A DNA stretch of 24,000 bases from Methanofollis sp. W23. GTDB lineage: Archaea; Halobacteriota; Methanomicrobia; Methanomicrobiales; Methanofollaceae. Position numbers and translations under genes: made by a program. Location of the stretch: positions 1,484,140-1,508,139 of the forward strand of contig NZ_JAGGMN010000001.1 in NCBI RefSeq assembly GCF_017875325.1, in the 5' to 3' direction. The notes beneath the pieces were generated by a model. The model had not been told where the DNA came from, ran no database searches, and saw nothing but the letters and a program-made list of their open reading frames with translations. Position 1 is the stretch's first letter; each line of letters starts with the position of its first letter. Positions 1-24,000 of the stretch are shown piece by piece.

Positions 1-530
1 ACGTGCCGGGGGCGCTGCCCTCGGACCCAGGATGAAGATGGAGGCGGGCAGGCGAGCGATGATCGTGAAGACGGGATGCGGTCCCTCGCCAATCTTCATC
101 CGCGGGGGGGACCGGGGGGGGCGGCACGCCCCCCGGGTGGAGGATAAAGTTCAAAATTTCTGGAAGGAAGCGTTTCGGTTCGAAGAGATGTTCACCCAAA
201 GAGAACTTCTGGATATGCTCATAATGAAAACAATTATGATTCTCCGGGGTGTCTGGACCCGTGCCCCGCCTTCAAAGCAGGACATTACGTGGGAACATCA
301 TCGAATGGTCCCCCCCGCCTATCCTCCTCGTAGGGGATCCTCGGGGTCCCCCCGGCGCGAGATGACGGTGAACGTTCTGCGATTGAGGGCGGGCACGCCT
401 GATCGGTGTGCCTTCCCACATCCACGTGCCTGGGGTTCTACGCCCTGACCTCCTCGATGAGGAGAGACAGGGAGGAGGCAATGAGGTGATGAAAACCCCT
501 GGTCTGGCTGAGGGGTGCTCTTGCGTCATG
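1..530 (+). repeat. Intergenic repeat family, locus R1 (~1.2 head-to-tail units, cut by the window edge)
   Basis: 'acgtgcc' at 1-7 recurs at 424-430, giving a period of 423 bp. 114-128 'gggggggcggcacgc' is identical to rc(15712-15726). 149-171 'gttcaaaatttctggaaggaagc' matches rc(15671-15693) at 20/23. 275-302 and 312-400 resemble 21545-21573 and 21585-21665. ORFs 32..448 and 408..896 run through it but are R/P/G-rich and their frames are not conserved between copies. Confidence 0.8.
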
Positions 531-3004: not shown

Positions 3005-3015
3005 AAAATGGGTTT

Positions 3016-3755
3016 TGTAGAATCGCTCATGACGCGAGAACACGCCTCAAGCATACGGGATGAAAATATTTCGTCGCTTGATCGCTCTTTTTCAAGAGAG
3101 GAAAATCAATGGGGATCGTGTTCCATCGCCGCCCCTCGGCTATCTTCGGTCCGTGGAGGGTCCAGGGGGTGAAACCCCCCGGCGCGAGATGGTAGGGAAG
3201 ATTCTACGATGGAGGGCGGCCATTCTGATCGAAGTGCCTTCCCACACCATCGGCCGGGGGCGCTGCCCCCGGACCCCCGGGGCGAAGATAGGGTCGGGAA
3301 GGCAGAGGGCCGATCATTCTGAAGGTGTTTCTATACTTTGCATATCGCTCAGAAGGCAATCAGACGGCTTCAAGTCCTCTCTCAACCCTCCAGAACCAAT
3401 CTTTGGGATCATTTTCATGGTAAACCCTCGCCCATTCTTGGTGTGAGCGCGACTCATCCGCCTTCCCCCCTCTTCGACTGGGACCGAGGGTCGCCCGGAT
3501 CCCCAGGATGATGATGAAGTTGGGAAGGCAGAACAACCAAACATGAAAAGGGTGATGCCGTCCTCGATCTATCATGTGGCAGGGGAGTTCGGGGGGCGGC
3601 CAGGCCCCCCTCCAGAGAGATTCATCCAGAGGATCTCTACAGAACCAAAAATAACTGGGGGACAATGGTCATGAGACAAAGGTTACGCCCCGGGCATATG
3701 GAGAGAGGAAGATAAGACCTTCCCCTCTGCCATCTTTCTCCTCTGCGAGGGGGCC
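3016..3755 (+). repeat. Intergenic repeat family, locus R2 (one unit plus a second partial unit)
   Basis: 3051-3070 'gcatacgggatgaaaatatt' is identical (20/20) to 21487-21506. 3199-3240 'aagattctacgatggagggcgg...gtgccttcccaca' resembles 21640-21690. 'cgggaaggcagag' occurs at 3295-3307 and 'tgggaaggcagaac' at 3521-3534. 3470-3620 repeats the A-B modules. 3715-3750 'gccatctttctcctctgcgagggggcc' is C-module-like. Confidence 0.8.
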
Positions 3756-5544: not shown

Positions 5545-5770
5545 CCCCTCTTCAAAGCCAGCCCCCGCCAGAGAGAGAGAGGTCTGGCTTCTGCCCTCTC
5601 ATCCATATCTTCTCCCCAGGGTTCTGGGGGAAGATCCCCGGACTTCGAGAGAGAGAGAGAAAGTGGTGTTCCCACCATTTGTCCTGCTCAGAAGGACGAG
5701 CACGGATCCACGCACACCCCATAACCATACAGGAATTCTCTTCAGGTATGCTTGAAAGATCCACGCAAAA
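5545..5770. repeat. Intergenic repeat family, locus R3 (short rearranged copy)
   Basis: rc(5662-5689) 'gagcaggacaaatggtgggaacaccact' resembles 21545-21573 'gagcaggacactatatgggaccaccact'. A C-module-like hairpin lies at 5607-5635 in plus orientation. (GA)n tracts sit at ~5572-5583 and ~5647-5661. Confidence 0.6.
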
Positions 5771-5790
5771 GTCTCCTCTCTCCAGGAGAC
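5764..5790 (-). terminator. Hairpin plus T-run immediately after the pLGIC stop codon
   Basis: Minus-strand reading after the stop (5798-5800): 'gtctcc-tggagaga-ggagac' forms a 6-bp stem (5771-5790). It is followed by 'tttt' (plus-strand aaaa at 5767-5770). Archaeal termination typically uses oligo-T. Confidence 0.45.
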
Positions 5791-5797
5791 CGTCCCC

Positions 5798-7627
5798 TCA
5801 CGAGAAGGCCGTGGTGATCAGCACGATCGAGACGATGTACGCGATCGGGTAGAACCAGACCAGCACGCGGTCGAGGCGTTCGGCCACCTCTTTCTGCTCC
5901 TTGGTCGCAAGCCACTTGAGATAGAGGTTGTAGACCACCGTGAGCCCGCTGACCACGAAGGTGGTGATCAGGACGGCGTCAAGGAAGGTGAGATAGCCAA
6001 GGCGGGGGAGGTCGCCGGCGATGGTGAAGTTGAAGGCGATGAAGAGGAGGAGGTTGGCGCTTGCCACGTCGGCACGCTTGCTGTAGTCCTTGAGGAGGAA
6101 GGTGACCCACCCGAGCATGATCAGGATGAAGATCGGGACAAAGATCCTGAGGATATAATACTCAAGGTGCCGCTTCGCATCAAAGCCGAACGAGAACCTG
6201 GAATGGACCTGGTTCTGCTCGACGGTGTCGACCTCGGTCCAGTATCCCGTGATATACCACTCCTCCTCGCCGAGTTGCGTGCCGACGATCGTCTCGCCCT
6301 CCCAGTCGGCATACCTGAAATACTCTTCCGGGTACAGGGCCTGGATCCTGATGTAGAAGGTCTGGGTGTCGAATGGATAGTCCTTGAAGTAGAAGTCAGG
6401 GGCCTGGAAGGTTGTCCAGAAACGCTCAAAGTAGGTCGCCGTACCATTCGAGGTGATGGTGATGAGTTGGTTCTGGGTCCACCTATTCCCCTGCTGGTTG
6501 AAAAGGGTGAACTCAGGCCACCTCGTCCCTTCGGCCTCGACAAAGTCGTCGATCTCCCGGTAGATCTTGAATGGGACGCCCTCTTCCTGGGGGTCGAAGG
6601 CAAGCACAGGGTCGTTCCACTGCATCCTGATGTTGGCGACGGCAGCGTAGTTCTCAGCCTTCTGATCGACATTGGTGATCTGGTCCAACTCCACCGCGGC
6701 CAGGACGGTGACCGGTTCCCGGATCACCTTTCTCCCACCGAGGACGGCGGTGCCGTCGAGCACCTCGGGATCGTTGATCCCGACGCGGAGCCTGAATGTA
6801 CCTTCGCCCTCCCCCGCCTCGACACGGAGGACCAGGCCCTCGGTCTCGTCGGCCCTGAGTTGATACGAGAGCGCCGCCCTGGTCCCATGGTCCAGAAAGT
6901 TTGCCGCCATCATGGGCTTCCCGTCCACGCTCTCAAGGATGAGGACCGGTCTCAGGTCGCCGGAGACCGAGTCCACCACAGCATGAACGGTGTCCCCGGC
7001 CTCGAGGTTCTCGAGCGGGTAGAAGGTCGAGGTCTTGTCGGCGGTGAGATTGCCGCTCCGCTCCTCGGCACCTTTGCCTGCCGGCGGCATCGCAGGGTCT
7101 GGGACGGCAAGGACCACGCCTGGCGTCGGTGTCGCCGTGCCGTAGAGTACACCAGGTGCATCGATCCCGAGCAGAAGGCTATATTCGCCGAAGGTCTCGG
7201 TCAGCGGCGACGAAGTGACAATGAGTGGATAATCGCCGTCTTTCGGGACGACCCACTTGAGGACGGCAGTATGTCCTTCAGCGCTGTCGTCGTCCCAGGC
7301 AAGGAAGAACCGGTCGGCGGCCCCGGTGATCTCCGCGACCGGTTCCCCGCCACCCCTGACCCCGGTCTGGACCATGGTCCAGAACTCCTCTCCCAGGGTG
7401 GTGCGGTTTGTCTCGGGCGGGGCGATCGCGACGAAGGGGTCGAGGTTTCCTGAACTCCGGTTCACCCGCACCGAGATGGTCTCCCCGGCCTGTAAGTCAG
7501 GGAGAAGATAGACCACACCGCCTTCTTCGAGCACCCTGCCTTTGAGGGCCTGCACCTCTTCTGCAGAGACCAGGGCCGGCACGGCAAGCATGAGGCATAT
7601 GACCACGAGCAATGCCCGGCAGTCCAT
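5798..7627 (-). CDS. Secreted multidomain pentameric ligand-gated ion channel (Cys-loop/GLIC-ELIC superfamily) with two N-terminal beta-sandwich-like repeats
   Basis: Start at ATG 7627 gives the signal peptide 'MDCRALLVVICLMLAVPALVSA'. The C-terminal ~280 aa carry the ECD motifs 'NIRMQWNDPVLAFDP' (6590-6619) and 'YPFDTQ' (6362-6379, the Cys-loop position without cysteines). Four TM helices follow: M1 'YYILRIFVPIFILIMLGWVTFLL', M2 'SANLLLFIAFNFTIAGDLPRLGY' (compare GLIC 'IAFNI...LPKTPY'), M3, and M4 'VLVWFYPIAYIVSIVLITTAFS'. The N-terminal ~300 aa contain an internal duplication. Confidence 0.9.
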   Translation of the reverse strand: MDCRALLVVICLMLAVPALVSAEEVQALKGRVLEEGGVVYLLPDLQAGETISVRVNRSSGNLDPFVAIAPPETNRTTLGEEFWTMVQTGVRGGGEPVAEITGAADRFFLAWDDDSAEGHTAVLKWVVPKDGDYPLIVTSSPLTETFGEYSLLLGIDAPGVLYGTATPTPGVVLAVPDPAMPPAGKGAEERSGNLTADKTSTFYPLENLEAGDTVHAVVDSVSGDLRPVLILESVDGKPMMAANFLDHGTRAALSYQLRADETEGLVLRVEAGEGEGTFRLRVGINDPEVLDGTAVLGGRKVIREPVTVLAAVELDQITNVDQKAENYAAVANIRMQWNDPVLAFDPQEEGVPFKIYREIDDFVEAEGTRWPEFTLFNQQGNRWTQNQLITITSNGTATYFERFWTTFQAPDFYFKDYPFDTQTFYIRIQALYPEEYFRYADWEGETIVGTQLGEEEWYITGYWTEVDTVEQNQVHSRFSFGFDAKRHLEYYILRIFVPIFILIMLGWVTFLLKDYSKRADVASANLLLFIAFNFTIAGDLPRLGYLTFLDAVLITTFVVSGLTVVYNLYLKWLATKEQKEVAERLDRVLVWFYPIAYIVSIVLITTAFS

Positions 7628-7803
7628 CCGAGATAGTCCCCCTCTTCGTCCTGGCAGCACCGGCGCGGTGGTCCCCGCTCCTGCCAGCACGACTCTGCTC
7701 TCTACTGCAGAGGACGACATATATGTCTTTCCTCGGTGTCAGGCATGGCGGCCGGAGAGTCGTCTTTTCTGCGGCACATTCTTCCCTGGTATTCCCATGC
7801 GCT

Positions 7804-8759: not shown

Positions 8760-9045
8760 AGGGATGAGGGCGCCGGAGGAGTATGCCTCGTGAGTGTGAG
8801 ATGAGCGAGCCTGAAAAATTGCTCGTAAAAAGTTTTAGAGAGATCTCCTTGATGTTTCTCTGTGGCGGAAGCATGCCGCCCCTAATCGTAGAATTTTTCC
8901 TGGAATCTCGCACCGGGGAGAGACCCCCCGGACCCCCACGACAAAGATAACCGAGGGGGGCAATGAAGTGGTGGTCACTATGGTCTCCTGCCGTATGCGT
9001 GATCCAGGGGTTCATGCAAAATTCTACAGGAACGAAATTTTTGAG
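8760..9045 (-). repeat. Intergenic repeat family, locus R4 (inverted partial unit next to the tRNA-Glu 3' flank)
   Basis: rc(8884-8907) 'gattccaggaaaaattctacgatt' matches 21631-21654 at 23/24. rc(8959-8976) 'gaccaccacttcattgcc' is identical to 21563-21580. rc(8991-9016) 'catgaacccctggatcacgcatacgg' matches 21469-21494 at 22/26. Confidence 0.85.
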
Positions 9046-9071
9046 AAAATGAATTTACGAAATGATTGGTT

Positions 9072-9082: not shown

Positions 9083-9103
9083 CATCTGGAATGTTGCCCG
9101 GAA

Positions 9104-9176
9104 TGCTGCCATGGGGATTCGAACCCCAGTCGTCGGCGTGAAAGGCCGACATGATTGGCCACTACACTATGGCAGC
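9104..9176 (-). tRNA. tRNA-Glu (anticodon UUC), CCA not encoded
   Basis: Minus strand: GCTGCCA-TA-GTGTAGTGGCCAATCATG-TCGGC-CTTTCAC-GCCGA-CGAC-TGGGG-TTCGAAT-CCCCA-TGGCAGC-A. It has a 7-bp acceptor stem, a 5-bp anticodon stem, the loop C-U-UUC-A-C, a T-arm with TTCGAAT, and discriminator A. Confidence 0.9.
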
Positions 9177-9191
9177 AGAAGTGCCATATTG

Positions 9192-9704: not shown

Positions 9705-10240
9705 GATCCCTGGACCGTCTGCACTCCCGGGCAAACGAAGATAACGCGAGAAGACCGGAGGTGCTGACGCTCTTGCTCCCCAGAGGGGAGATGACCCTTG
9801 ATTCCGTCTTCCTACCCAGACATCCATGCATTCATCCCTTCTCACGCCACCGCGCCGGGGTGCTGCCCCCGGACCCGAGGGACGGAGAGAGAGACGGGAA
9901 GGCAGAGCGATGATCATGACGATGGGATGCGATCCCCCGTCAATCATCATCAGCAGGGGTTCAGGGGGCGGCACACCCCACGGTGGGTAGGGTCCGGACA
10001 TTCAGGAACGAAAGACTTCAGTTCAAGACGATGGTCAAGCCTCAGGGAGTTCTGGGATCTGCTTTTTGTGTGAATGAGACTCAAACCCCCTTCCCATAGT
10101 CTCTCACCACGGGCTTTGCTCCAGGACTCCGCGGATGAAGAGAGGGCAGGACATGAAAGGCCAGGGGCGGCATCAACGCAGGGATACGCATCAAGAGAGG
10201 TCTTAACACAGCCCCTCAATCACCAGAAAAGAAGAACAAA
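9705..10240 (+). repeat. Intergenic repeat family, locus R5
   Basis: 9895-9938 'cgggaaggcagagcgatgatcatgacgatgggatgcgatccccc' matches 21739-21782 at 41/44. 9851-9878 'cgcgccggggtgctgcccccggacccga' is the A-module hairpin. 9990-10060 resembles the E module at 140-215. A degenerate second A-B copy lies at ~10095-10190. The 5' part (9705-9830) is only weakly similar. Confidence 0.75.
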
Positions 10241-15240: not shown

Positions 15241-15293
15241 TTACTGATTGGCTTTTCGGCCGCCCCTGGCGCAGTACATTTCAATACTCGGCT

Positions 15294-16250
15294 CTGGAGA
15301 ATTCAAAATGAACTTGGGGTCACACAAATCTCTTGACCCGCCGCCCCCGCATATCCTCTCCCCATAAGGGGTCTGGATGAAATGAGGAGAGAGGCTGGAA
15401 GACAGGGAGACGATTGCTCATTGTGTATGGAGTCACGCCTGGCGCGGGTTTTTCGATCTTCGAGGTCATCCCAAAACTCTCCCGTCCTCCTCCCCCCTGA
15501 TGATGGCGATGGATGAGAATGAAGAGAGTCCTCGGTCCTGATGACCGATCAAGCCAAGGGCGCTTATGGGATATGCTCCATGAAAGTGATCCAGAATATC
15601 GGCCCGTGAGATTCTGATGAAGGGCATATCTCAAAACTCTCCTGGGATGAACATTCCCTTGAACCAGAGTGCTTCCTTCCAGAAATTCAAAACTCCCTTC
15701 TCGACCGGGGTGCGTGCCGCCCCCCCTGTCCTCCCACTGATGAAGATAGGTGAAGGATTGCGTCCCGTTTTCATGGTTTTTTCTCTGCCTTCCCGGCCCT
15801 TTCGCCATCCTGGAGGTCCGGGGGCGGCGGCCCGGATGCGATCGTTCGAGGAAGGCATGGCAGACCAGACCGATCGACGTGCTGCCCCACATAGAGACTA
15901 ATGAATGTTTTCCTGGTTTCTTTCGCCGGGGGGAGACCCTGCGAAACCCCCGCGACGAAGATAGAGGTCAGGTGGCAGGACCCCAGCGAAAAGATAGAAG
16001 AAGGCGATGAATGGATGTTCTCGCTACGAAGACAGGAGAGTTTGACACCATCATCTTTCTTTATCTCTGGCAGAGGGGAAACTCAGGAGAGTTCTTGGAT
16101 GACCTCGATTTCAACCTGGATATCGTCCACAGCATCAAGAATTCCCCTGACCCCCGCCATTCCCGCAGGTCGATGCGGCCACGGAGTTCCCGTCGAGTGC
16201 CGCGAGAGATCGTGCCGGAAGAACCGGGCCTACCTGATGCCCTGAAAATA
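15294..16250. repeat. Intergenic repeat family, locus R6 (two arrays in opposite orientation, tail to tail)
   Basis: Plus-oriented part: 15294-15327 'ctggagaattcaaaatgaacttggggtcacacaa' resembles 21456-21490, and a C-like module lies at 15344-15376. Minus-oriented part: 15783-15796 is rc 'ccgggaaggcagag', rc(15712-15726) is identical to 114-128, and rc(15671-15693) matches 149-171 at 20/23. rc(15920-15990) gives 'ctatcttcgtcgcgggggtttcgcagggtctccccccggcg' (C module). Beyond ~16110 similarity is weak. Confidence 0.75.
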
Positions 16251-18322: not shown

Positions 18323-18879
18323 GAGAGGGGATCAACGAGGTGATCGCCACGACCCGCGGCAATGCCGCACCGATGGGGATCATCTCCCGCAACGGCACCC
18401 TCTCGATGGTCCTCTTCAAGGGTTCCCACACCGAGGCGAATATCAGGCGGGACGGATGGGTGGTCGCCAACCTCACCGCCGACCCGGTGGTCTGGGTGCG
18501 GACGGCCTTCGAGGACCTGCCGCAGAAAGACCTGGTCGCCGAGGTGGTGGCGGGCAGGGAGGTCGAGCGTCTCCGCACCTGCGAGGCATGGGCGGCATTT
18601 GCCGTGGAGGTGAAGCACGAGACCGCCGAGAAGATCCTGGTCGCCCTCACCCCGCTCGCCGCCCCGGTCGCCCTGGAGAAGGGAGTCTGCCCGGTGAACC
18701 GCGGGTTTGCCGGGATCATCGAGGCGACGGTGCATGCCACCAGGTTTGTCCGCACCCGCGATCCAGGTCTTCGGGCCCTCATCGACCACCACCTCGCTCT
18801 GGTGCAGCGCTGCGGTGGACCGCGGGAGTGGGAGGCCGCACGGGTGCTGGAAGGGTTCATCTCTGAGGAAAAGGAGTGA
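18304..18879 (+). CDS. DUF447-family protein (flavin-reductase-like split barrel)
   Basis: 'GINEVIATTRGNAAPMGIISRNGTLSMVLFKGSHTEANIRRDGWVVANL' fits my recollection of DUF447 N-termini (GI.E.I.TT...NaAPMG). It overlaps the CitG-like gene by 19 nt. Confidence 0.7.
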   Translation: MGMGFLREGINEVIATTRGNAAPMGIISRNGTLSMVLFKGSHTEANIRRDGWVVANLTADPVVWVRTAFEDLPQKDLVAEVVAGREVERLRTCEAWAAFAVEVKHETAEKILVALTPLAAPVALEKGVCPVNRGFAGIIEATVHATRFVRTRDPGLRALIDHHLALVQRCGGPREWEAARVLEGFISEEKE

Positions 18880-18882
18880 GGG

Positions 18883-19155
18883 TCACGGGAATACGGAATA
18901 GATCTCTTCTCTGGATTTTACGCGGTAGAAGATCAGGGCACCTGAACTGGTGAGTCTGCATCCAATCCTGTATCTTCCCACCCGTATCCGGTAGAAATCC
19001 GAATGCCCTTTCATCCTTTTGAAATCAAAATCAGTGTAGAGATCGTTGGAGTCTGGTATAGCAGAAAATACCAGTTCTTCTATATTTTTTCTGAGGGGAA
19101 TCGGCACCTTTGTGAGATCTTTTAAAAATGTCTTTTTATAGAGGCATTGAACCAT
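18883..19155 (-). CDS. RelE/ParE-family type II toxin
   Basis: 'KKTFLKDLTKVP...RKNIEELVFSAI...FKRMKGHSDFYRIRVGRYRIGCRLTSSGALIFYRVKSREEIY' matches the RelE/ParE hallmark (L.G....YRiRvGdYRi.y.......i..v.hR.e.Y). The start lies 1 nt after the antitoxin stop. The region is low-GC. Confidence 0.85.
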   Translation of the reverse strand: MVQCLYKKTFLKDLTKVPIPLRKNIEELVFSAIPDSNDLYTDFDFKRMKGHSDFYRIRVGRYRIGCRLTSSGALIFYRVKSREEIYSVFP

Positions 19156-19156
19156 T

Positions 19157-19360
19157 TCAAACTGATTCCTTCATTTTTTTATAATATTCCCGCGCCTCTG
19201 CACGGTCGAGGGGCTCATCATCATCTGCCTCCTCAATGTAGTGTGAAAGGCCGTAATCCTCAATGATGGACTCGATCCGTTCAAAGGTAGAGATATCGAT
19301 GATGACGCCGACCGGGGTATTGTCTTCGGACATCACATACTGACGTTTAATATCAAGCAT
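19157..19360 (-). CDS. Putative antitoxin of the RelE/ParE module
   Basis: 67 aa: 'MLDIKRQYVMSEDNTPVGVIIDISTFERIESIIEDYGLSHYIEEADDDEPLDRAEAREYYKKMKESV'. It is small and acidic, sits immediately upstream of the toxin, and is tightly coupled to it. Start at ATG 19360; ATG 19333 (M10) is an alternative. The longer ORF to 19537 overlaps the neighbouring gene. Confidence 0.7.
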   Translation of the reverse strand: MLDIKRQYVMSEDNTPVGVIIDISTFERIESIIEDYGLSHYIEEADDDEPLDRAEAREYYKKMKESV

Positions 19361-19395
19361 AAGATTCTCCCCGATACACTCTTTCGCGTCTGTTG

Positions 19396-19403
19396 ATATA
19401 AAT
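19396..19403 (-). promoter_or_regulatory. TATA-box-like element for the toxin-antitoxin pair
   Basis: The minus strand reads 'catttatatcaac' (plus-strand atataaat at 19396-19403), 36-43 nt upstream of ATG 19360. Confidence 0.4.
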
Positions 19404-19422
19404 GATGACCAGTCTCCCCCCA

Positions 19423-21381
19423 CTAAAACGGGAAGACCGCATACTGGATGTACCAGAGATATTGCACCAGGGGGATCCAGAAATGATACCCCTCCCAGCA
19501 GAGGGTGGCAAAGCGGAAGTCCACCACCGCTCCCCATGCAAGGGTGAAGAGCATCAGGACCGGGAGGAGGGAGGCAAGGGCTATGGGCCGGGTCTTCCCT
19601 GCGGCCGTGAGGAAGTAGAGGAGAGCGGCAAGGGCGAGGAAGAGATAGGTGAGGGGCATGAGAAATGCCACCTGGCCGCTTATCTCTCCCCCTGAGAGAA
19701 GTTGGAGGACGAGGTAGATGAGGGGGAGGTCGATGACGATCAGCCAGAAGAGGGTTTTCAAGGAGCGCGCGATCTCGACCTCGCCAAACCCGACATACCT
19801 GAGGGCATAGGTCCCGAGCACGACCAGCGGGAGATAGATAGGGCTGAGATAGCGCATGTCAGGGACGATCCCCTGACTCCCTCCCATCCAGGGGATGGAC
19901 TTGAGATAGGCGGCCAGGACGATGAGAACGGTAAGGGCGAAGAAGGCGATGAGTCGGCCGTCACGAGAGGAGAAGGAAGAGCGTCCGGAGGTGTAGAGTT
20001 GGTAGCCGACCGGGACGAGGAGGAGCAGGGCGAAAAAGCCGAAAGAGGAGACCTGGAAGATCCCGGCCGAGCCTGAGTACGAGGGATCGAAGAAGGTGCC
20101 GTAAAATCCTGAGAGGAGATCGCCGGCCGGCGGGGCATAGTGTCTGGCCACCGTCGCCCTGAGGGTGCCGGCCGCAGACGGGAGGCCTGAAGGGGCGGCG
20201 GCGCCGTACCCGGCCACCCAGGGGAGGAGGAGGGGGTGTCCGGTGAGGCCGAGGTTGTTCACAAAGAGCGGGAGGGCCCCGAGCGGGACGCCCGATATGG
20301 CGAGGGCGGTCTTTCCTGACTCGCGCCACCCCTTCCTGACCGAGAGGAGGAGCGCAAAGAGCGCAAACCCCACGAGGAGCGAGGGCCCGAGTTCTGGCCT
20401 GGCCCATGCGGTCCACCCGACGGCGATGAACGCGGAGAAGAGATAGAGCGGGCGGTCTCTGGTGAGGGAGAGGACGAAGCAGTAGATCGCGATCGTAAAG
20501 AAGAGCATCACCAGCATGTGGTCCTTGGCATTCCCGGACCAGAAGAGATAGGACGACGAGGCAAGTGTTGCCACGAGGCCAAAGATCCCCCAGCGGACCG
20601 ACCCGAAGACCTCCAGGAAGATATGATAGACGAGGAGGGCAAAGAGGGCGAAGGCGATAGTGTTGGTGAAGACGATGGCCGCGACCTCAGGATAGACGCT
20701 GACGTCAGCGGGGTGCACCCCGCGCACAAACCAGAAGGGGTGGTACAGGGCCATGTTGAGGACAAAGAGGATGCCCCAGGAGATGATGGCGGCATAGGTC
20801 CAGGGGATCCCATGCCAGCGTGCGTATCTGGGGTACCACCACTCGATCATGAGGACGACGGCAAGGAGGAGTGCCGACCAGAGGAGGATGACAAAGAGGC
20901 GGAAGGAGTCGTCGAAGAGATCGAAGAAGTAGTATGCAGGGAGGGAGAGGGTAGGGAGTGCCAGGGTGTAGCAGAGACAGTCGTGGTGCGAGGCAGCATA
21001 GGCGGCAGAACCGTACGGGTGATACCCGTACAGGAGGTCGTCGCCCTCGACCAGGTGGTTCACCTGGTCTGCGGAGATCCATTCGTCGGTGATGTAGATG
21101 GCCGGGTACGAGATGGTGAGGGCGAGGAGAAAGGAGAGAAGGAGGATCACGAGGTCCAATTTCAGGGCATGCGTCCTCTCTGTCACCTCGCCGTCCCCTT
21201 CTTCAGGGGGACTGCAGGGGAGATCACGTGAATAGGATTCTCTGCATGTTGTATCTCCCTCCATACTCTCGATCACACCGTCTATGATTCTATGCTCATC
21301 TCCTGGAGGATATATACTATTTTTGATATTCTCCCGCCCTCCATGAATGAAATCAGAGTCCAGGAGAGAAAGGGAGGGCAC
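19423..21381 (-). CDS. Large polytopic membrane protein, possibly a GT-C-fold (ArnT/PMT-like) glycosyltransferase
   Basis: 652 aa with more than 12 hydrophobic helices and high GC3. The first extracytoplasmic loop after TM1 carries the acidic 'YITDEWISADQVNHLVEGDD', reminiscent of GT-C loop-1 D/E motifs. The functional call is tentative, and the start is uncertain (ATG 21381 or an internal Met). Confidence 0.8.
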   Translation of the reverse strand: MPSLSLLDSDFIHGGRENIKNSIYPPGDEHRIIDGVIESMEGDTTCRESYSRDLPCSPPEEGDGEVTERTHALKLDLVILLLSFLLALTISYPAIYITDEWISADQVNHLVEGDDLLYGYHPYGSAAYAASHHDCLCYTLALPTLSLPAYYFFDLFDDSFRLFVILLWSALLLAVVLMIEWWYPRYARWHGIPWTYAAIISWGILFVLNMALYHPFWFVRGVHPADVSVYPEVAAIVFTNTIAFALFALLVYHIFLEVFGSVRWGIFGLVATLASSSYLFWSGNAKDHMLVMLFFTIAIYCFVLSLTRDRPLYLFSAFIAVGWTAWARPELGPSLLVGFALFALLLSVRKGWRESGKTALAISGVPLGALPLFVNNLGLTGHPLLLPWVAGYGAAAPSGLPSAAGTLRATVARHYAPPAGDLLSGFYGTFFDPSYSGSAGIFQVSSFGFFALLLLVPVGYQLYTSGRSSFSSRDGRLIAFFALTVLIVLAAYLKSIPWMGGSQGIVPDMRYLSPIYLPLVVLGTYALRYVGFGEVEIARSLKTLFWLIVIDLPLIYLVLQLLSGGEISGQVAFLMPLTYLFLALAALLYFLTAAGKTRPIALASLLPVLMLFTLAWGAVVDFRFATLCWEGYHFWIPLVQYLWYIQYAVFPF

Positions 21382-21439
21382 AACTTCTGATCACCGTGCG
21401 AAAAGAGAGAGACTCCCTCTGACTTCATGCTTGAGAACA

Positions 21440-22030
21440 TTTTCAATTTTCGGCCCTGGAGAATCTGGCATGAACCTGGGGCTCACGCATACGGGATGAA
21501 AATATTAGGTGGTCTCAGGGTTATGGACCCTTGCTCTCTCTCTGGAGCAGGACACTATATGGGACCACCACTTCATTGCCGCCACCTCTCTTCGTTGTAG
21601 GGGGTCGGGGGAGTTGGACCCTCTGTGCAAGATTCCAGGAAAGATTCTACGATTGAAGGCGGCACGCTTGATCACCACGCCTTCCCACACGCGTACGCCC
21701 GGGGTCCTGCCCCCTGACCCCCGGGATGGCGATAGGGGCGGGAAGGCAGAGCGATGATCATGACGACAGGATGCAATCCCCCGCAAATCCCCATCAGCGA
21801 GGGCTCGGGGGGTGGCATGTCCCCTCCCGCCAGAAGGATCCAACGGCGAGAATGATACGAAGGCATGCTCTGAGCCCTGTAAAATATCTCACCAGTCCCA
21901 GAAGTGAGCACGAATCGCCTGCCTTCCCTAATCTCAGGGACGATTTTCAGGGACGTGGCCTCCATCCAATCGCAAAAAAGGTTCAGGGACCTGATTCACC
22001 GACCAGGTCCAGGAAAAAATTTCCGGGGTC
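21440..22030 (+). repeat. Intergenic repeat family, locus R7 (best-preserved full unit)
   Basis: Module order: boundary (21456-21506), D (21510-21585), C (21585-21665), A (21665-21750), B (21750-21830), then a diverged E. See the anchors listed for R2, R4, R5 and R6. It contains spurious ORFs 21505..21843(-), 21509..21757(+) and 21726..22100(+). Confidence 0.85.
22012..22024 (-). terminator. Oligo-T tract after the 223-aa membrane protein gene
   Basis: The minus strand reads 'ccggaaattttttcctgg'. The T6 run (plus-strand aaaaaa at 22014-22019) lies 16 nt after the stop at 22035. Confidence 0.4.
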
Positions 22031-22034
22031 CAGT

Positions 22035-22706
22035 TCACCTCTCCTGCCCTGGTTCCGAGGGACTTGTCGAGGAGGAGAAGTCTTCTCCTGGTCGAGGTGA
22101 TTCATCTGAAGTCTCTTCCAGAGCATCGTCCTCATCAGGATCTTCTTCTTCCAGATACTCCTCCTCGATCTCGGCATGGTATGCCAGCCATGCGACCCCC
22201 AGGACCATAGGCACGCCGACCGGAATCGAGAAGCCCGCAGGCCCATGGAGAAGGGGGCCGTACTGGACGACGACCGAGGCGAGATAGGCGATCCCCGCTC
22301 CCGCAATGAGGAGGGAGAGGAGTTTTTTGATGGACGCATACTCCTCATACCACCTGCAGACAAGATACATGACCGCAGCGACCAGGAGAAGGGTACCGCC
22401 GATCCATAACAGGACCGAGAGGGCGGTCTTCCCCCCAAGGATGCCAGATGAGACATACTCGAAGTCGCGCACGAGAGTGATGAGGTTTGTCCCCAGATAG
22501 GTCTGCTGGTAGCGCAGGAGCGGGAACTGGAGGCCTGCACCCAGGCCATCTCCGATGAGATAGATGTTTGCAGGCAGGACGAGTATAAGGGTAATGAGGG
22601 CGGAGAGCGTGGATTTCGTGATCTTGTGCGCCACTCCCTCTCCGCCCGGCATGGGTATGGGTTCCATAGAGTGTCCAATTGAGTCATTCACAGTCTTCTC
22701 TCTCAT
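22035..22706 (-). CDS. Membrane protein of unknown function with an acidic C-terminal tail
   Basis: 223 aa with ~5 hydrophobic helices, ending in 'AEIEEEYLEEEDPDEDDALEETSDESPRPGEDFSSS'. It lies on the same strand as the two pilin-like genes, 41 nt downstream of them. The alternative frame 21983..22687 is S/R/P-rich and was rejected. Confidence 0.75.
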   Translation of the reverse strand: MREKTVNDSIGHSMEPIPMPGGEGVAHKITKSTLSALITLILVLPANIYLIGDGLGAGLQFPLLRYQQTYLGTNLITLVRDFEYVSSGILGGKTALSVLLWIGGTLLLVAAVMYLVCRWYEEYASIKKLLSLLIAGAGIAYLASVVVQYGPLLHGPAGFSIPVGVPMVLGVAWLAYHAEIEEEYLEEEDPDEDDALEETSDESPRPGEDFSSSTSPSEPGQER

Positions 22707-22747: not shown

Positions 22748-23140
22748 TCAGATCTGGGTGTTCAGGATGACCTGCGACGATCCATCAAGGTACGTCGCCA
22801 TGACCATCACCTGGTGCGTTCCCCACGGGTCGGCGATCGGCGTGGCATTGGTTGCAGACGCGCCGACCTCGTGATCGAGCCAGTTTGTCTGTTCGACCCC
22901 ATCGATCGTCCAGTTCAGGTGATCGATCTCCCGGTCCCCCATGCCTCCGACATAGGTCACGCTGATTGTGCCGTCTTCGTACTGCGTTGCCGTCGCCCCG
23001 ACGATCCCGTTCTCCTGGAGATCTCCAGTAGAGCCGAAACCAAAGGAGGCAACGATGGCGGCAAGGGTCACCACGACAGCGACCATGAGGATTGTGGCGA
23101 TGGTCGAGGAGACCGCGTCGTCATGTACAGACTGAACCAT
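22748..23140 (-). CDS. Archaeal type IV pilin-like protein (DUF1628 / class III signal peptide)
   Basis: The N-terminus 'MVQSVHDDAVSSTIATILMVAVVVTLAAIVASFGFG' has a short charged leader and a hydrophobic helix. The C-terminus '...DGSSQVILNTQI' parallels its neighbour. An SD-like 'ggtggagg' lies 3 nt upstream of the ATG. Confidence 0.8.
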   Translation of the reverse strand: MVQSVHDDAVSSTIATILMVAVVVTLAAIVASFGFGSTGDLQENGIVGATATQYEDGTISVTYVGGMGDREIDHLNWTIDGVEQTNWLDHEVGASATNATPIADPWGTHQVMVMATYLDGSSQVILNTQI

Positions 23141-23177: not shown

Positions 23178-23594
23178 TCAGATGTAGGTGTCCAGGATGA
23201 CCTGGTCGGAACCGTCAGTGAACTTTGCAGTTGCAACGACATGGTTCCGGTTGCCCTTCTCGACGCTCTTATTAATTTTCATTGAGTCACCCACTGTAAT
23301 ATTTCCAGGGAACGGGACTTTATTACCGTCATTGACATTTACAGTGACGTTCTGGACAAGACCAGCATCACTGCCACCCTGATATGTGACAGTGATTATC
23401 TGGTTGCCATTATTATCAACGCTGTGTGATGCAGTAGCAGCGACGCTCTTGGTGCCAGACATGTTGCCTGCCATGCCAAAGACAAACGCGGCGATGACGG
23501 CCGCGAGGATCACCGTGATGGCGACCATGAGGATGACGCCGATAACCGGCGACACAGCCTCGTCATTCTTCTCAAACTTCTCAAACAGTTTCAT
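23178..23594 (-). CDS. Archaeal type IV pilin-like protein (DUF1628 / class III signal peptide)
   Basis: 'MKLFEKFEKNDEAVSPVIGVILMVAITVILAAVIAAFVFGMAG' is the canonical DUF1628 N-terminus ((D/E)-A-VSPVIGVILMVAITV). The C-terminus is '...DGSDQVILDTYI'. Start at ATG 23594 with 'ggtggtga' upstream; the ORF-track start 23633 adds 13 unlikely residues. Confidence 0.85.
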   Translation of the reverse strand: MKLFEKFEKNDEAVSPVIGVILMVAITVILAAVIAAFVFGMAGNMSGTKSVAATASHSVDNNGNQIITVTYQGGSDAGLVQNVTVNVNDGNKVPFPGNITVGDSMKINKSVEKGNRNHVVATAKFTDGSDQVILDTYI

Positions 23595-24000
23595 CGGTTT
23601 CACCACCCTACCCTTACAGGTAGGATAGTACATGCTCTCATGGCACAGTATATGAACATTTTGATTTCATCGGACTTAGATCCAGTGGTCGTTATATATA
23701 TATTTTGATTTGAGTTTTTCAAAACACACCTGCGGGCCAGAAAATCCAGAATTTACGCGCCGATGAGATGCAGCGATGATACCCGGGCCTGCGCCCCAGA
23801 TCCACAGGCATAATCCCTGGAAATACGCGGCGAAATCGGTCCGAACTTCTATGAATATATATAAATGAGCCAGGGGTTTGTCGACCTTGAAGAGCACCAG
23901 GTCTGGGCAAAAAAATATCGCACGATTCTGGTATAAGAACTATCCGCAGATCATACAATGAAATATTTGTTACAACATTTAAAAAAAGAACATTCTGGAG

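What the first reader, a model, noticed from the sequence alone, without database searches (positions are those of the whole stretch)
21440..22030. Undescribed ~420-bp GC-rich repeat family fills nearly every long intergenic spacer (7 loci, ~3.9 kb, ~16% of the window)
The coordinates give the best-preserved copy. The other loci are 1-530, 3016-3755, 5545-5770, 8760-9045 (inverted), 9705-10240 and 15294-16250 (both orientations). Direct matches I verified by hand are listed below.
- 9895-9938 vs 21739-21782: 41/44.
- 3051-3070 vs 21487-21506: 20/20.
- rc(8884-8907) vs 21631-21654: 23/24.
- rc(8959-8976) vs 21563-21580: 18/18.
- rc(15712-15726) vs 114-128: 15/15.
- rc(15671-15693) vs 149-171: 20/23.
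The modules keep a fixed order (boundary-D-C-A-B-E) but occur as tandem, truncated, inverted and internally duplicated versions. The sequence is not protein-coding. Copies differ by single-nt indels (for example 'ggcaggcgagcgatgatc' at 49-66 vs 'ggaaggcagagcgatgatc' at 9898-9916), so the ORF-track peptides switch frame ('GRRAMIVKTGCGPSPIF' vs 'GRQSDDHDDGMRSPVNHH'). No transposase, TIR-plus-TSD signature or CRISPR-like regular spacing is present. The elements sit next to promoters (cfbA, the 652-aa membrane protein) and 3' ends (acyP, PRC-barrel, tRNA-Glu). Possible roles are a structured ncRNA family, a terminator/insulator, a satellite-like recombination substrate or a non-autonomous mobile element. 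I cannot match it to any family I know.
Basis: seen in the sequence. Interest (0 to 1): 0.78.

Follow-up and report, generated by a model that had tools for sequence, protein, structure and literature searches.

The report
Mosaic hairpin repeats between Methanofollis genes
The long gaps between genes in this methane-producing archaeon hold diverged copies of a non-coding, hairpin-bearing repeat that differs between close strains; it is real, looks like selfish DNA, and is probably related to a motif reported in 2021.

Summary
Seven of nine intergenic spacers of at least 150 nt carry one repeat family (self-BLAST E down to 1e-33). A family model covers 2,399 nt, 10% of the window rather than the claimed 16%, with no bases inside genes. 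The window matches Methanofollis sp. W23.

The family is non-coding and matches nothing in Rfam, Pfam, phage, plasmid or viral collections. The "420-bp modular unit" is simpler than described. It is a mosaic of one 55-60-nt module (CTGCCTTCCC..TATCTTCATC..GGGGGTCCGGGGG-loop-CCCCCGG) in alternating orientations between conserved linkers; 17 modules lie in the window.

The family also occurs in two other Methanofollis genomes. Related strains (about 90-96% identical in flanking genes) lack 823 bp of it upstream of cfbA. One strain lineage carries a different arrangement after the aminotransferase gene. One other genome holds copies 92-97% alike over at least 350 aligned nt.

"Undescribed" is only partly right. 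A 2021 paper reported the G-run/C-tract core as interspersed intergenic "rPQS" repeats in Methanomicrobiaceae, including a Methanofollis strain.

Most likely this is a REP/BIME-like or MITE-like non-autonomous repeat. No transposase, terminal inverted repeats or convincing target duplication were found. There is no support for a structured RNA.

The parts
1..503 (+). Array S1, cut by the window edge. It holds the 3' two-thirds of one unit (2-174) followed by the first ~310 nt of the next (220-490). It lies upstream of the ABC permease gene.
   Evidence: nhmmer hits 2-174 (model 248-421, E 3e-33) and 220-490 (model 46-312, E 2e-49). Modules at 53-2(-), 82-135(+), 306-360(+), 472-425(-). Linker motif TTCTGGAAGGAAG at 158.
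3007..3630 (+). Array S2, about 1.5 units, between the convergent 3' ends of acyP and a 116-aa ORF.
   Evidence: nhmmer hits 3007-3381 (model 2-380, E 1e-75) and 3418-3630 (model 190-402, E 1e-38). Modules at 3126-3187(+), 3307-3253(-, 41 bits, the best in the window), 3532-3484(-). The same-strain short-read contig L018 ends at about window 3252, at the edge of the 3307-3253 module.
5582..5776 (-). Array S3, two fragments, between the pLGIC-like gene's 3' end and the response-regulator gene's 5' end.
   Evidence: nhmmer hits 5776-5657 (model 12-131) and 5665-5582 (model 232-312). Module at 5589-5644(+).
8862..9051 (-). Array S4, the first half of a unit in inverted orientation, between small plus-strand ORFs and tRNA-Glu (9103-9177, minus strand).
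   Evidence: nhmmer hit 9037-8871 (model 2-221, E 9e-30). BLAST 9051-8991 vs 21438-21494. Module at 8957-8908(-). tRNA.
9827..10150 (+). Array S5, between the convergent 3' ends of the PRC-barrel and aminotransferase genes.
   Evidence: nhmmer hits 9827-9982 (model 223-380, E 3e-35) and 10069-10150. Modules at 9906-9850(-), 9933-9985(+), 10150-10102(-). In strain contigs L019-L021 this spacer holds a family member in a different arrangement. All three contigs end 202 nt after the stop codon, inside the repeat.
15273..16108 (-). Array S6, between the divergent cfbA and Dus-like genes. It has a boundary piece (15273-15326, plus strand), an inverted unit (15967-15611) and further boundary-like motifs. 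Bases 15282-16104 (823 bp) are absent from related strains.
   Evidence: BLAST and nhmmer. Modules at 15757-15706(-), 15783-15842(+), 15967-15918(-). Gapped alignment to L019 places the extra DNA at 15282-16104. L002-L004 lack it. The more distant L022 has only a 390-bp spacer with no family hit. A 23-nt inverted repeat joins 15460-15482 and 16086-16108.
21434..21945 (+). Array S7, the most complete unit. It runs boundary, linker, module(+), linker, module(-), linker, weak third module, then a truncated extra module start (21917-21945). It lies upstream of the 613-aa membrane-protein gene.
   Evidence: nhmmer hit 21448-21889 (model 2-435, E 2e-116). Modules at 21577-21630(+) and 21750-21695(-). 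CTGCCTTCCC at 21919-21928.
21695..21750 (-). Example of the basic 55-60-nt module: CTGCCTTCCCGCCCCTATCGCCATCCCGGGGGTCAGGGGGCAGGACCCCGGGCGT. It reads G-run, TCA, G-run, loop, C-run.
   Evidence: Module HMM, 39 bits. 36-module alignment A6. The hairpin is paired in 88% of cells against 44-66% in slid controls.
21487..21506 (+). Conserved AT-rich box GCATACGGGATGAAAATATT in the boundary linker. An identical copy lies at 3051-3070.
   Evidence: 20/20 identity. The box is conserved in copies from STE_20. Its function is unknown.

Best explanation
This is a lineage-specific, non-coding, interspersed mosaic repeat of Methanofollis. The window matches Methanofollis sp. W23.

Its building block is a 55-60-nt module: CTGCCTTCCC-N-CCCTATCTTCATC-N-GGGGG-TC(C/A)-GGGGG-loop-CCCCCGG. 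The second G-run and the C-run can form a 7-bp GC hairpin. The module sits in alternating orientations between conserved linkers. These include an AT-rich box (GCATACGGGATGAAAAT) and the motif TTCTGGAAGGAAG. Together they give a higher-order unit of about 430 nt, which occurs whole, truncated, inverted or in irregular series.

The element encodes nothing. I read it as selfish or neutral repetitive DNA that is copied into intergenic DNA in trans. Arrays are then reshuffled by recombination between modules, much like bacterial REP/BIME/REPIN elements or MITE-like elements. It is tolerated because it lands outside genes and, at the one site tested, outside the gene-proximal upstream sequences. 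It is probably a divergent relative of the 'rPQS plus C-tract' repeats reported in Methanomicrobiaceae in 2021.

Shown here: repetition, non-coding nature, intergenic-only location, module architecture, presence in other Methanofollis genomes, differences between strains, and a near-identical duplicate pair in another genome.

Inferred: mobilisation in trans, the hairpin as the recognition site, and the type of enzyme.
For: 1. Repetition is far beyond chance.
2. 17 modules lie in alternating orientation. All 2,399 model-covered bases are intergenic and none is in a gene.
3. The family is non-coding.
4. It recurs in Methanofollis MAGs STE_20 and DJKA126. Nine of 13 genome-scan hits were in these MAGs; the other 4 were single hits in unrelated bacterial MAGs. 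Spacers of up to 2 kb there are filled with copies.
5. Strains differ. 823 bp (15282-16104) is absent from L019, whose flanking genes are 90-93% identical, and from L002-L004. The more distant L022 has a short spacer with no family hit. The 39-93 nt next to both start codons stays conserved.
6. The spacer after the aminotransferase gene holds a differently arranged family member in three contigs, L019-L021, whose spacer sequences are identical to each other.
7. In DJKA126, two copies on different contigs are 92-97% identical over at least 350 aligned nt, in two blocks spanning about 460 nt of L008.
8. Short-read contigs end inside the repeats at the same points.
9. The hairpins are kept in 83-88% of cells against 41-66% in slid controls.
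10. G.T (15) and A.C (11) mismatches are about equal, so no RNA strand is favoured.
11. There is a link to the published rPQS repeats. The same TC(C|A) loop occurs between G-runs. The module HMM gives 11 hits of at least 6 bits in FWC-SCC2 copies against 0.4 in shuffles. The linker motif TTCTGGA[AG][GT]GAAG occurs in 6 copies of this family and in 7 of 19 FWC copies, with 0 hits in 763 kb of background.
Against: - No terminal inverted repeats close the unit.
- The only candidate target duplication, TTTGAATGA at the cfbA site, matches 6/9 and 7/9 by eye. The 'empty' alleles carry a boundary-like motif there, so deletion by recombination between direct repeats is not excluded.
- No transposase was found in the window. 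None appeared among the 25 Pfam families displayed (of 68 matched) for 47 ORFs flanking copies in the MAGs.
- Copies are old. Mean pairwise identity is 65% and the maximum is 84% among the 20 core copies compared. No recent burst is visible in this window.
- Hairpin pairing does not exceed shuffles in the 36-module alignment. Covariation is only marginal in the 17-copy alignment. The hairpin may simply be part of a conserved consensus.
- Homology to the FWC-SCC2 repeats rests on weak individual scores of at most 11 bits and a consensus-to-consensus z of 2.8-3.7. The FWC copies are not independent of one another.
Confidence: 0.55

Rival explanations
1. The repeat is a host-serving DNA or RNA structural element. 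The G-run/C-run modules would act as hairpin, triplex or G-quadruplex switches. They could help end transcription, protect mRNA 3' ends, insulate neighbouring genes or bind chromatin proteins, and would be kept by selection rather than by self-propagation.
For: The hairpin-forming core is the best conserved part of the unit. Locations match the pattern published for rPQS repeats: 3 convergent, 2 tandem and 1 divergent gene pair in the window, against 50%, 39% and 11% in PMC8044849. That paper showed in vitro that oligonucleotides from related Methanomicrobiaceae rPQS repeats form hairpin, triplex or G4 structures. The gene-proximal upstream sequences are left intact.
Against: Close strains do without the 823-bp array upstream of cfbA, and M. 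fontis has short spacers with no family hit in the region examined. The window copies do not meet the four-G-run quadruplex pattern. In the + orientation, no T-run follows the terminal hairpin in the copies read. Arrays of up to 2 kb are far more than any such role needs. Orientation is unrelated to gene direction.
Confidence: 0.2
2. Each unit is a gene for a structured non-coding RNA. The AT-rich box in the boundary linker would act as a BRE/TATA-type archaeal promoter, and the hairpins would be RNA structure.
For: A 20-nt AT-rich box (GCATACGGGATGAAAATATT) is conserved at a fixed place near the unit's start. Conserved sequence blocks follow it in fixed order.
Against: There is no Rfam match, even at E up to 10. 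Single-sequence folds are no better than shuffles, with z of -0.5 and -1.1. RNAalifold gives a consensus energy of only -2.2 kcal/mol. G.U and A.C mismatches are about equal, so no strand is favoured. The middle region pairs differently in different subfamilies by eye. Many copies lack the box or are truncated. The X and X' arms do not co-evolve within copies (p=0.47).
Confidence: 0.1
3. The repeat is a classical MITE. It would be an internally deleted insertion sequence with terminal inverted repeats and target-site duplications, moved by a DDE transposase encoded elsewhere in the genome.
For: It shows presence/absence between strains, with a possible 9-nt direct repeat at the junctions. A 23-nt inverted repeat (91% complementary) lies 603 nt apart inside the cfbA-side array. 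Its size and non-coding nature fit.
Against: No terminal inverted repeats are shared by the copies. Copy ends are ragged. Arrays are irregular and nested. Divergence is high. A clear classical MITE does exist in a related genome (L008, about 110 nt, 12-bp TIR, 9-bp TSD) and looks quite different.
Confidence: 0.1
4. The repeats are decayed remains of a protein-coding gene family or of an insertion sequence.
For: ORFs of 80-190 aa overlap the repeats. One of them is annotated as a hypothetical protein in W23.
Against: Substitutions show no codon periodicity, indels are mostly 1-2 nt, and stops occur in all frames overall. There are no significant Pfam matches. No protein homologue exists among 5.8 billion sequences other than the ORF itself.
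Confidence: 0.03

Closest known systems
Repetitive potential G-quadruplex sequences (rPQS) with a 3' C-rich tract in Methanomicrobiaceae (Chashchina et al. 2021, Front Microbiol, PMC8044849)
   Same: Both are multi-copy, strictly intergenic, show no strand preference and lie mostly near gene ends. Both have a core of G-runs separated by TC(C|A), as in Methanofollis sp. FWC-SCC2, followed by a loop and a complementary C-run that forms a GC hairpin. In both, the module occurs twice in inverted orientation within a unit. The linker motif TTCTGGA[AG][GT]GAAG lies on the same strand upstream of the module in both.
   Different: The window copies have two unbroken G5 runs rather than four G3 runs, so they do not meet the quadruplex pattern. 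The FWC-SCC2 unit is about 245 nt where tandem, the unit here about 430 nt. Overall sequence similarity is weak. The paper described only the 17-21-nt motif and its C-tract, not the mosaic unit, its strain-to-strain variation or its module structure.
Bacterial REP sequences, BIMEs and REPINs with their RAYT transposases (PMC2817692, PMC3116915)
   Same: Both are GC-rich imperfect palindromes, extragenic and high-copy. Both cluster in alternating orientations separated by conserved linkers. Both lack terminal inverted repeats and clear target duplications, persist for long periods and diverge heavily.
   Different: The module is longer (55-60 nt against 20-40 nt). The higher-order unit is long and well conserved. 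There is no GTAG/CGTC tag. No RAYT gene is known or was found, and this could not be tested genome-wide here. The REP literature I consulted does not cover Methanomicrobiales.
Prokaryotic MITEs (Sulfolobus SM1-SM4, ERIC; review PMC10969869)
   Same: Both are non-coding, a few hundred nt long, intergenic, multi-copy and polymorphic between strains.
   Different: The family has no shared terminal inverted repeats and no fixed-length target duplication. Copy ends are ragged and copies form nested or inverted arrays. The review names no methanogen of the Methanomicrobiales among MITE hosts.
BOX elements of Streptococcus pneumoniae (modular boxA-boxB-boxC repeats; from my own knowledge, not checked here)
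   Same: Both have modules in fixed order with variable numbers and truncations, are intergenic and non-coding, and are predicted to form hairpins.
   Different: The sequences and hosts are unrelated. BOX modules are not one palindromic module reused in both orientations.

Membership tests
rPQS repeats of Methanomicrobiaceae (PMC8044849) | Four G-runs of at least 3 G with loops of 1, 3-5 and 1 (A) nt: GGGNGGG-N3-5-GGGAGGG | tested here: not met
   A regex on both strands finds no such motif in the window or in the MAG loci that carry the family. The copies have GGGGG-TC(C/A)-GGGGG instead.
rPQS repeats of Methanomicrobiaceae (PMC8044849) | A C-rich tract just 3' of the G-runs, complementary to the last G-run(s), giving a GC hairpin | tested here: met
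   CCGGGGG-loop-CCCCCGG is paired in 88% of cells in 36 modules, against 44-66% when the partner is slid.
rPQS repeats of Methanomicrobiaceae (PMC8044849) | Central loop TC(C|A), as reported for Methanofollis sp. FWC-SCC2 | tested here: met
   GGGGGTCCGGGGG or GGGGGTCAGGGGG lies in modules at 3278, 8937, 9876, 21722 (minus strand) and at 16155, inside array S6. It is also in 6 MAG loci.
rPQS repeats of Methanomicrobiaceae (PMC8044849) | Interspersed, intergenic only, either strand | tested here: met
   No model-covered base lies in a gene. There are 17 modules, 7 on the plus strand and 10 on the minus strand.
rPQS repeats of Methanomicrobiaceae (PMC8044849) | Sequence homology to the published copies beyond the G/C core | tested here: inconclusive
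   Unit HMM against FWC copies gives E of 1e-4 to 0.03. Consensus-to-consensus z is 2.8-3.7. The module HMM gives 11 hits of at least 6 bits against 0.4 in shuffles, none above 11 bits. A shared 13-nt linker motif has 0 hits in 763 kb of background. No hit in the five Methanoculleus MAB1 copies.
REP / BIME / REPIN-RAYT | Short imperfect palindrome, extragenic and multi-copy | tested here: met
   The module carries a 7-bp GC stem, occurs 17 times in 24 kb and is always intergenic. At 55-60 nt it is longer than a typical REP.
REP / BIME / REPIN-RAYT | Clusters of palindromes in alternating orientation separated by conserved linkers | tested here: met
   Orientation patterns such as -,+,+,- (S1), -,+,- (S5) and -,+,- (S6), with conserved linkers.
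REP / BIME / REPIN-RAYT | Conserved GTAG or CGTC tag at the head of the palindrome | tested here: not met
   By eye, GTAG precedes the first G-run in only 2 of 36 modules in alignment A6. No conserved tag is present.
REP / BIME / REPIN-RAYT | A cognate single-copy Y1 (HUH) transposase gene flanked by the repeats | not testable with these tools
   None is in the window. None is among the 25 Pfam families displayed for 47 flanking ORFs in the MAG loci. The whole W23 genome could not be searched.
MITE | Terminal inverted repeats shared by the copies | tested here: not met
   No inverted repeat joins the two ends of the complete unit. The left ends of the copies align but have no inverted partner at the right end.
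MITE | Target-site duplication of fixed length | tested here: inconclusive
   Only one filled/empty site was available. TTTGAATGA in L019 matches TTTCAATAC (6/9) on the left and CTTGGATGA (7/9) on the right, by eye.
MITE | Insertion polymorphism between related genomes | tested here: met
   823 bp at 15282-16104 is absent from L019 and L002-L004. L022 has a short spacer with no family hit. Deletion is not fully excluded.
Structured non-coding RNA family | Match to a curated RNA family, or a consensus fold supported by covariation | tested here: not met
   Rfam has nothing significant, even at E up to 10. RNAalifold gives -2.2 kcal/mol. Fold z-scores are -0.5 and -1.1. There is no strand asymmetry of wobble pairs.
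CRISPR array | Short direct repeats at regular spacing with unique spacers | tested here: not met
   Tandem Repeats Finder finds no array in any spacer. Module spacing is irregular and orientation alternates.

The most novel reading that the evidence does not exclude
The module-plus-linker mosaic could be the first archaeal counterpart of the bacterial REPIN/BIME system. In that reading, a hairpin-bearing non-autonomous element is copied by a single-copy, possibly domesticated, HUH-type or otherwise unknown recombinase. It would be shared in diverged forms across Methanomicrobiaceae (Methanofollis, Methanoculleus, Methanolacinia) as the 'rPQS' repeats. Its G-run/C-run core would serve as the enzyme's single-strand DNA recognition structure, not as a quadruplex.
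Probability: 0.15. Interest if true: 0.7.

Novelty: new variant of a known kind. Interest (0 to 1): 0.42.

Why it matters
Archaeal genomes are compact, so having a tenth of a 24-kb stretch made of one non-coding repeat is unusual. It explains the window's unusually long spacers of 0.5-1.2 kb.

The work gives three practical results:
- It reframes a published 17-21-nt 'G-quadruplex' motif as the core of a much larger mosaic element that differs between strains. That weakens a purely structural or regulatory reading of the motif.
- It supplies a module and unit model for annotating these regions. Short-read assemblies break in them, and gene callers place spurious 'hypothetical proteins' on them.
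- It identifies a candidate system in which REP/RAYT-like biology could be looked for in archaea.

If the element is only decaying selfish DNA, the finding is useful for annotation but not surprising.

Tried and rejected
- Metagenome scan with the hairpin core GGGGGTCCGGGGGCAGNGCCCCC. This was a poor choice of pattern. It returned more than 120 unrelated GC-rich contigs. Only one (L081) had a family match beyond the motif itself.
- My last protein search went to the ORF 21983-22687(-), which found nothing. I had meant to reach sister-strain contigs across the 21.4-22.0 kb spacer through the 613-aa neighbour, so that site could not be compared between strains.
- Look-ups of the 652-aa ORF and of P0121 found no record. 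Look-ups of the PRC-barrel and 99-aa proteins returned only the window's own strain.
- A global RNA structure was rejected.
- A long hairpin between the inverted X and X' arms was rejected. Within-copy complementarity is no better than between-copy complementarity.
- Hairpin covariation is marginal in 17 copies and absent in 36 modules.
- There is no association with viruses, plasmids or phages. Five viral hits to a 17-mer were chance: no family-model hits, and four are low-GC contigs.
- The 23-nt inverted repeat at 15460-15482 / 16086-16108 was considered as MITE ends. Its flanks show no duplication, and its right arm is partly ancestral flank that is also present in L019.
- I saw a resemblance to the Methanoculleus MAB1 rPQS copies by eye, but the module HMM did not detect it, so I do not claim it.
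Full report
SETTING

The window carries ordinary methanogen genes:
- an ABC transporter and acylphosphatase
- a response regulator with PAS domains
- a 640-aa protein with a ligand-gated-channel domain
- tRNA-Glu
- a PRC-barrel protein and a class IV aminotransferase
- the F430 biosynthesis genes cfbA, cfbB and two nitrogenase-like genes (one with the Pfam CfbE_C domain)
- Dus-like, CitG and DUF447 genes
- a ParE/RelB toxin-antitoxin pair
- a 613-aa membrane protein and two archaeal pilins

A 190-aa ORF in one spacer is 100% identical to 'hypothetical protein J2129_001348' of Methanofollis sp. W23, on a 2.87-Mb contig. It has no other homologue among 5.8 billion proteins. The window therefore matches that strain. 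The nearest named relative by the aminotransferase is M. fontis, at only 80% amino-acid identity.

Yes.
The repeat finder returns the same families.
One needs a one-base shift.
- An nhmmer model iterated on the window plus related loci has a 435-nt consensus. It covers 2,399 nt of the window (10.0%), with no base inside a gene.
- Seven of the nine spacers of at least 150 nt carry the family.
- The repeat has 58.8% G+C, below the genes at 62.3%. Only its hairpins are strikingly GC-rich.
- Tandem Repeats Finder finds no regular array.

WHAT IS IT MADE OF?

The model matched many places on both strands, which showed that the unit has internal inverted symmetry. Extracting the symmetric part gave a module of 55-60 nt. 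Its consensus is CTCTGCCTTCCCGGCCCTATCTTCATCCTGGGGGTCCGGGGGGCAGCGCCCCCGGCGCG.

A module model finds 17 copies in the window in alternating orientations:
- S1: 53-2(-), 82-135(+), 306-360(+), 472-425(-)
- S2: 3126-3187(+), 3307-3253(-), 3532-3484(-)
- S3: 5589-5644(+)
- S4: 8957-8908(-)
- S5: 9906-9850(-), 9933-9985(+), 10150-10102(-)
- S6: 15757-15706(-), 15783-15842(+), 15967-15918(-)
- S7: 21577-21630(+), 21750-21695(-)

A 36-module alignment from the window and two other genomes shows the layout: a CTGCCTTCCC head, a TATC-TTCATC box, a G-run, TC(C/A), a second G-run, a 5-nt loop, then a C-run.

A full unit of about 430 nt reads as follows:
1. a boundary linker containing GTAGAATC...GCATACGGGATGAAAATATT
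2. module (+)
3. a 70-nt linker
4. module (-)
5. a 28-nt linker (AGAGCGATGATCATGAAGACGG...)
6. module (+)
7. a linker ending in AATTTCTGGAAGGAAGC, which resembles the start of the next boundary

IS IT CODING, OR AN RNA?

It is not coding.
- Substitution rates show no codon periodicity (p=0.43).
- Only 24 of 153 indels are multiples of three.
- Stops occur in all frames overall.
- Ten overlapping ORFs have no significant Pfam match; the only sub-threshold hit was DUF4871 at E=0.011, below its gathering score.

There is no sign of a structured RNA.
- Rfam gives nothing, even at E up to 10 on the isolated unit.
- Single-sequence folds are no better than shuffles, with z of -0.5 and -1.1.
- RNAalifold gives a consensus energy of -2.2 kcal/mol.
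- The two GC hairpins are kept in 83% of cells, against 41-65% in slid controls. Covariation there is marginal: 9 double changes, reached by 13 of 500 shuffles.
- In the 36-module alignment, pairing (88%) equals the shuffled value. The hairpin is a property of a conserved consensus and is not shown to be kept by compensatory change.
- G.T (15) and A.C (11) mismatches are about equal, so no strand behaves as the RNA strand.
- The inverted modules within a unit do not co-evolve (p=0.47).

WHERE ELSE IS IT?

One genome-collection scan with the core CGGGAAGGCAGAGNNNNGATCAT gave 13 hits. Nine were in two Methanofollis MAGs (STE_20 and DJKA126). Four were single hits in unrelated bacterial MAGs. In the MAGs the family fills spacers of up to 2 kb (L013 2647-4431, L015 5077-7061). 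It lies next to housekeeping genes such as those for a proteasome subunit, TBP and FttA. No transposase appears among the 25 Pfam families displayed of 68 matched.

Core copies are 65% identical on average and 84% at most. Copies from different genomes are as alike as copies within one genome.

In DJKA126, two copies on different contigs are 92-97% identical over at least 350 aligned nt, in two blocks spanning about 460 nt of L008. Whole mosaic units have therefore been duplicated fairly recently.

No copy was found in the 14-kb M. fontis locus or the JGI loci examined. None was found in viral contigs, phage records or plasmid records.

DOES IT DIFFER BETWEEN STRAINS?

Look-ups by exact protein brought in contigs from strains about 90-96% identical to the window in the flanking genes.

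Between cfbA and the Dus-like gene the window has a 1,187-nt spacer. The other strains have roughly 330-570 nt there.
- A gapped alignment places 823 extra bases at window 15282-16104 relative to L019.
- L002, L003 and L004 lack them too. The more distant L022 (82% amino-acid identity) has only a 390-bp spacer with no family hit. Insertion in the window's lineage is therefore the simpler reading.
- The 39 nt next to cfbA and the 93 nt next to the Dus-like gene stay conserved. The array sits outside the gene-proximal upstream sequences, which presumably hold the core promoters.
- By eye, the junction shows a possible 9-nt direct repeat. L019 has TTTGAATGA; the window has TTTCAATAC on the left and CTTGGATGA on the right. 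This is weak. The 'empty' alleles also carry a boundary-like motif there, so deletion by recombination between two boundary motifs cannot be excluded.

After the aminotransferase gene, three contigs (L019-L021, from three sequencing runs, identical in this spacer) keep about 90 nt next to the stop codon. They then carry a family member arranged differently from the window's.

All three of those contigs end at the same base inside the repeat. The window's own short-read contig ends inside repeats at about 3252 and at 15904. This fits near-identical copies elsewhere in those genomes. Poor sequencing through GC hairpins could also cause it.

WHAT IS ALREADY KNOWN?

A full-text search found one directly relevant paper. 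Chashchina et al. 2021 (PMC8044849) reported 'repetitive potential G-quadruplex sequences' in 12 of 20 Methanomicrobiaceae genomes. The motif is GGGNGGG-N3-5-GGGAGGG followed by a C-rich tract that can pair with the last G-runs. According to that paper:
- all copies are intergenic
- half lie between convergent genes and 11% between divergent ones
- there is no strand preference
- in Methanofollis sp. FWC-SCC2 the central loop is TC(C|A)

The window copies show the same TC(C/A) between G-runs, the same loop and the same C-run. Their G-runs are unbroken, so the four-run pattern is not met.

The paper's supplementary sequences show two inverted copies of a similar module in each FWC unit. They also show tandem units about 245 nt apart.

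Statistical support for homology is moderate.
- Unit model against FWC copies: E of 1e-4 to 0.03.
- Consensus against consensus: z of 2.8-3.7.
- Module model: 11 hits of at least 6 bits against 0.4 in dinucleotide shuffles, none above 11 bits.
- The linker motif TTCTGGA[AG][GT]GAAG occurs in 6 copies of this family and in 7 of 19 FWC copies, on the same strand relative to the module. It has no hit in 763 kb of background DNA.

I take the two families to be related. The relation is not proven, and the FWC copies are not independent of one another. The paper did not describe the larger unit, its module structure or its variation between strains. The REP and MITE literature I consulted does not cover Methanomicrobiales.

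HOW DOES IT MOST LIKELY WORK?

The anatomy is closest to bacterial REP/BIME/REPIN elements. One palindromic GC module appears in alternating orientations between conserved linkers. It is extragenic, old and diverged, lacks terminal inverted repeats, and varies between strains.

I therefore favour a non-autonomous element copied in trans. The hairpin would be the likely recognition structure. Arrays would then be reshaped by recombination between modules.

The steps from 'dynamic repeat' to 'mobilised in trans by a hairpin-recognising enzyme' are inference. No enzyme was found, and the whole genome could not be searched. A host function (terminator, insulator, DNA-structure switch) is the main rival. 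The 823-bp array is dispensable in sister strains, array sizes are excessive for such a role, and in the copies read no T-run follows the terminal hairpin. These points argue against that rival but do not exclude it for individual copies.

VERDICT

The feature is real and well defined. It is a divergent, larger-scale variant of a repeat whose core motif is already in the literature, and it belongs to the general kind of prokaryotic interspersed palindromic repeats. It is moderately interesting for archaeal genome biology and annotation, and it is not a new category.

Noticed in passing
window 18867-19537: A low-GC island (41-46% G+C against about 62% in genes) carries a ParE-like toxin gene (18883-19155, minus strand) and a RelB-like antitoxin gene (19157-19537, minus strand). 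In the related strain L019 this stretch does not align, and a 145-aa zinc-ribbon ORF sits there instead. It looks like a swapped-in toxin-antitoxin cassette.
   Followed up: partly
L008 5041-5159 (Methanofollis MAG DJKA126): A classical small AT-rich MITE is inserted into the TATC/GAAGATAGG box of one copy of the repeat family. The inserted block is 119 nt including one copy of the duplication, so the element is about 110 nt. It has a perfect 12-bp terminal inverted repeat (GGAGTTACGCAG...CTGCGTAACTCC) and a 9-bp duplication (GAAGATAGG). The sister copy in L011 shows the empty site.
   Followed up: partly
window 5798-7720 (minus strand): A 640-aa protein has a neurotransmitter-gated ion-channel ligand-binding domain (Pfam PF02931, E 6.5e-11). 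This is a pentameric ligand-gated-channel-like protein in an archaeon.
   Followed up: no
window 22748-23140 and 23178-23633 (minus strand): Two adjacent paralogous archaeal type IV pilin genes (Pilin_N) share a 92-nt stretch at 71% identity.
   Followed up: no
window 19423-21264 (minus strand): A 613-aa predicted membrane protein has no Pfam match. The plus strand here shows very strong composition skew (AT skew up to 0.38, GC skew up to 0.31). The listed 652-aa ORF probably starts too early; the L019 homologue is 610 aa.
   Followed up: partly
window 21960-22034: By eye, a 7-bp hairpin (GGACCTG...CAGGTCC) is flanked by runs of A on the plus strand, which are T-runs on the minus strand. It looks like the terminator of the minus-strand ORF ending at 21983/22035. 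It falls inside the coordinates given for the finding but is not part of the repeat.
   Followed up: no
window 21983-22706 (minus strand): Two overlapping ORFs (234 and 223 aa, different frames) look hydrophobic by eye. They have no Pfam match, and the 234-aa ORF has no homologue at E<=1e-20 in the protein collection. Which frame is real, if either, is unsettled.
   Followed up: partly
L019 5551-5836 (spacer between the Dus-like gene and cfbA in a sister strain): This strain's shorter spacer contains its own internal duplication of roughly 90 nt (ATTCCCTTGACCCCCGC... occurs twice) relative to the window. The spacer is structurally unstable even without the repeat family.
   Followed up: no
L018 ends (window ~3252 and 15904); L019, L020, L021 ends: Short-read assemblies of this strain and a sister strain break inside the repeat modules. 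Three independent runs break at the identical base. A 190-aa ORF on the repeat is annotated as a hypothetical protein in W23. Both are practical annotation and assembly artefacts caused by the family.
   Followed up: partly
L005-L017 (Methanofollis MAG loci carrying the family; locus not identified): One of the 47 ORFs flanking repeat copies in the MAG loci matches NrS-1 polymerase HBD (PF22763, E 7e-32), a domain of virus and plasmid primase-polymerases. This hints at a mobile element in one of those loci. Any link to the repeat was not examined.
   Followed up: no
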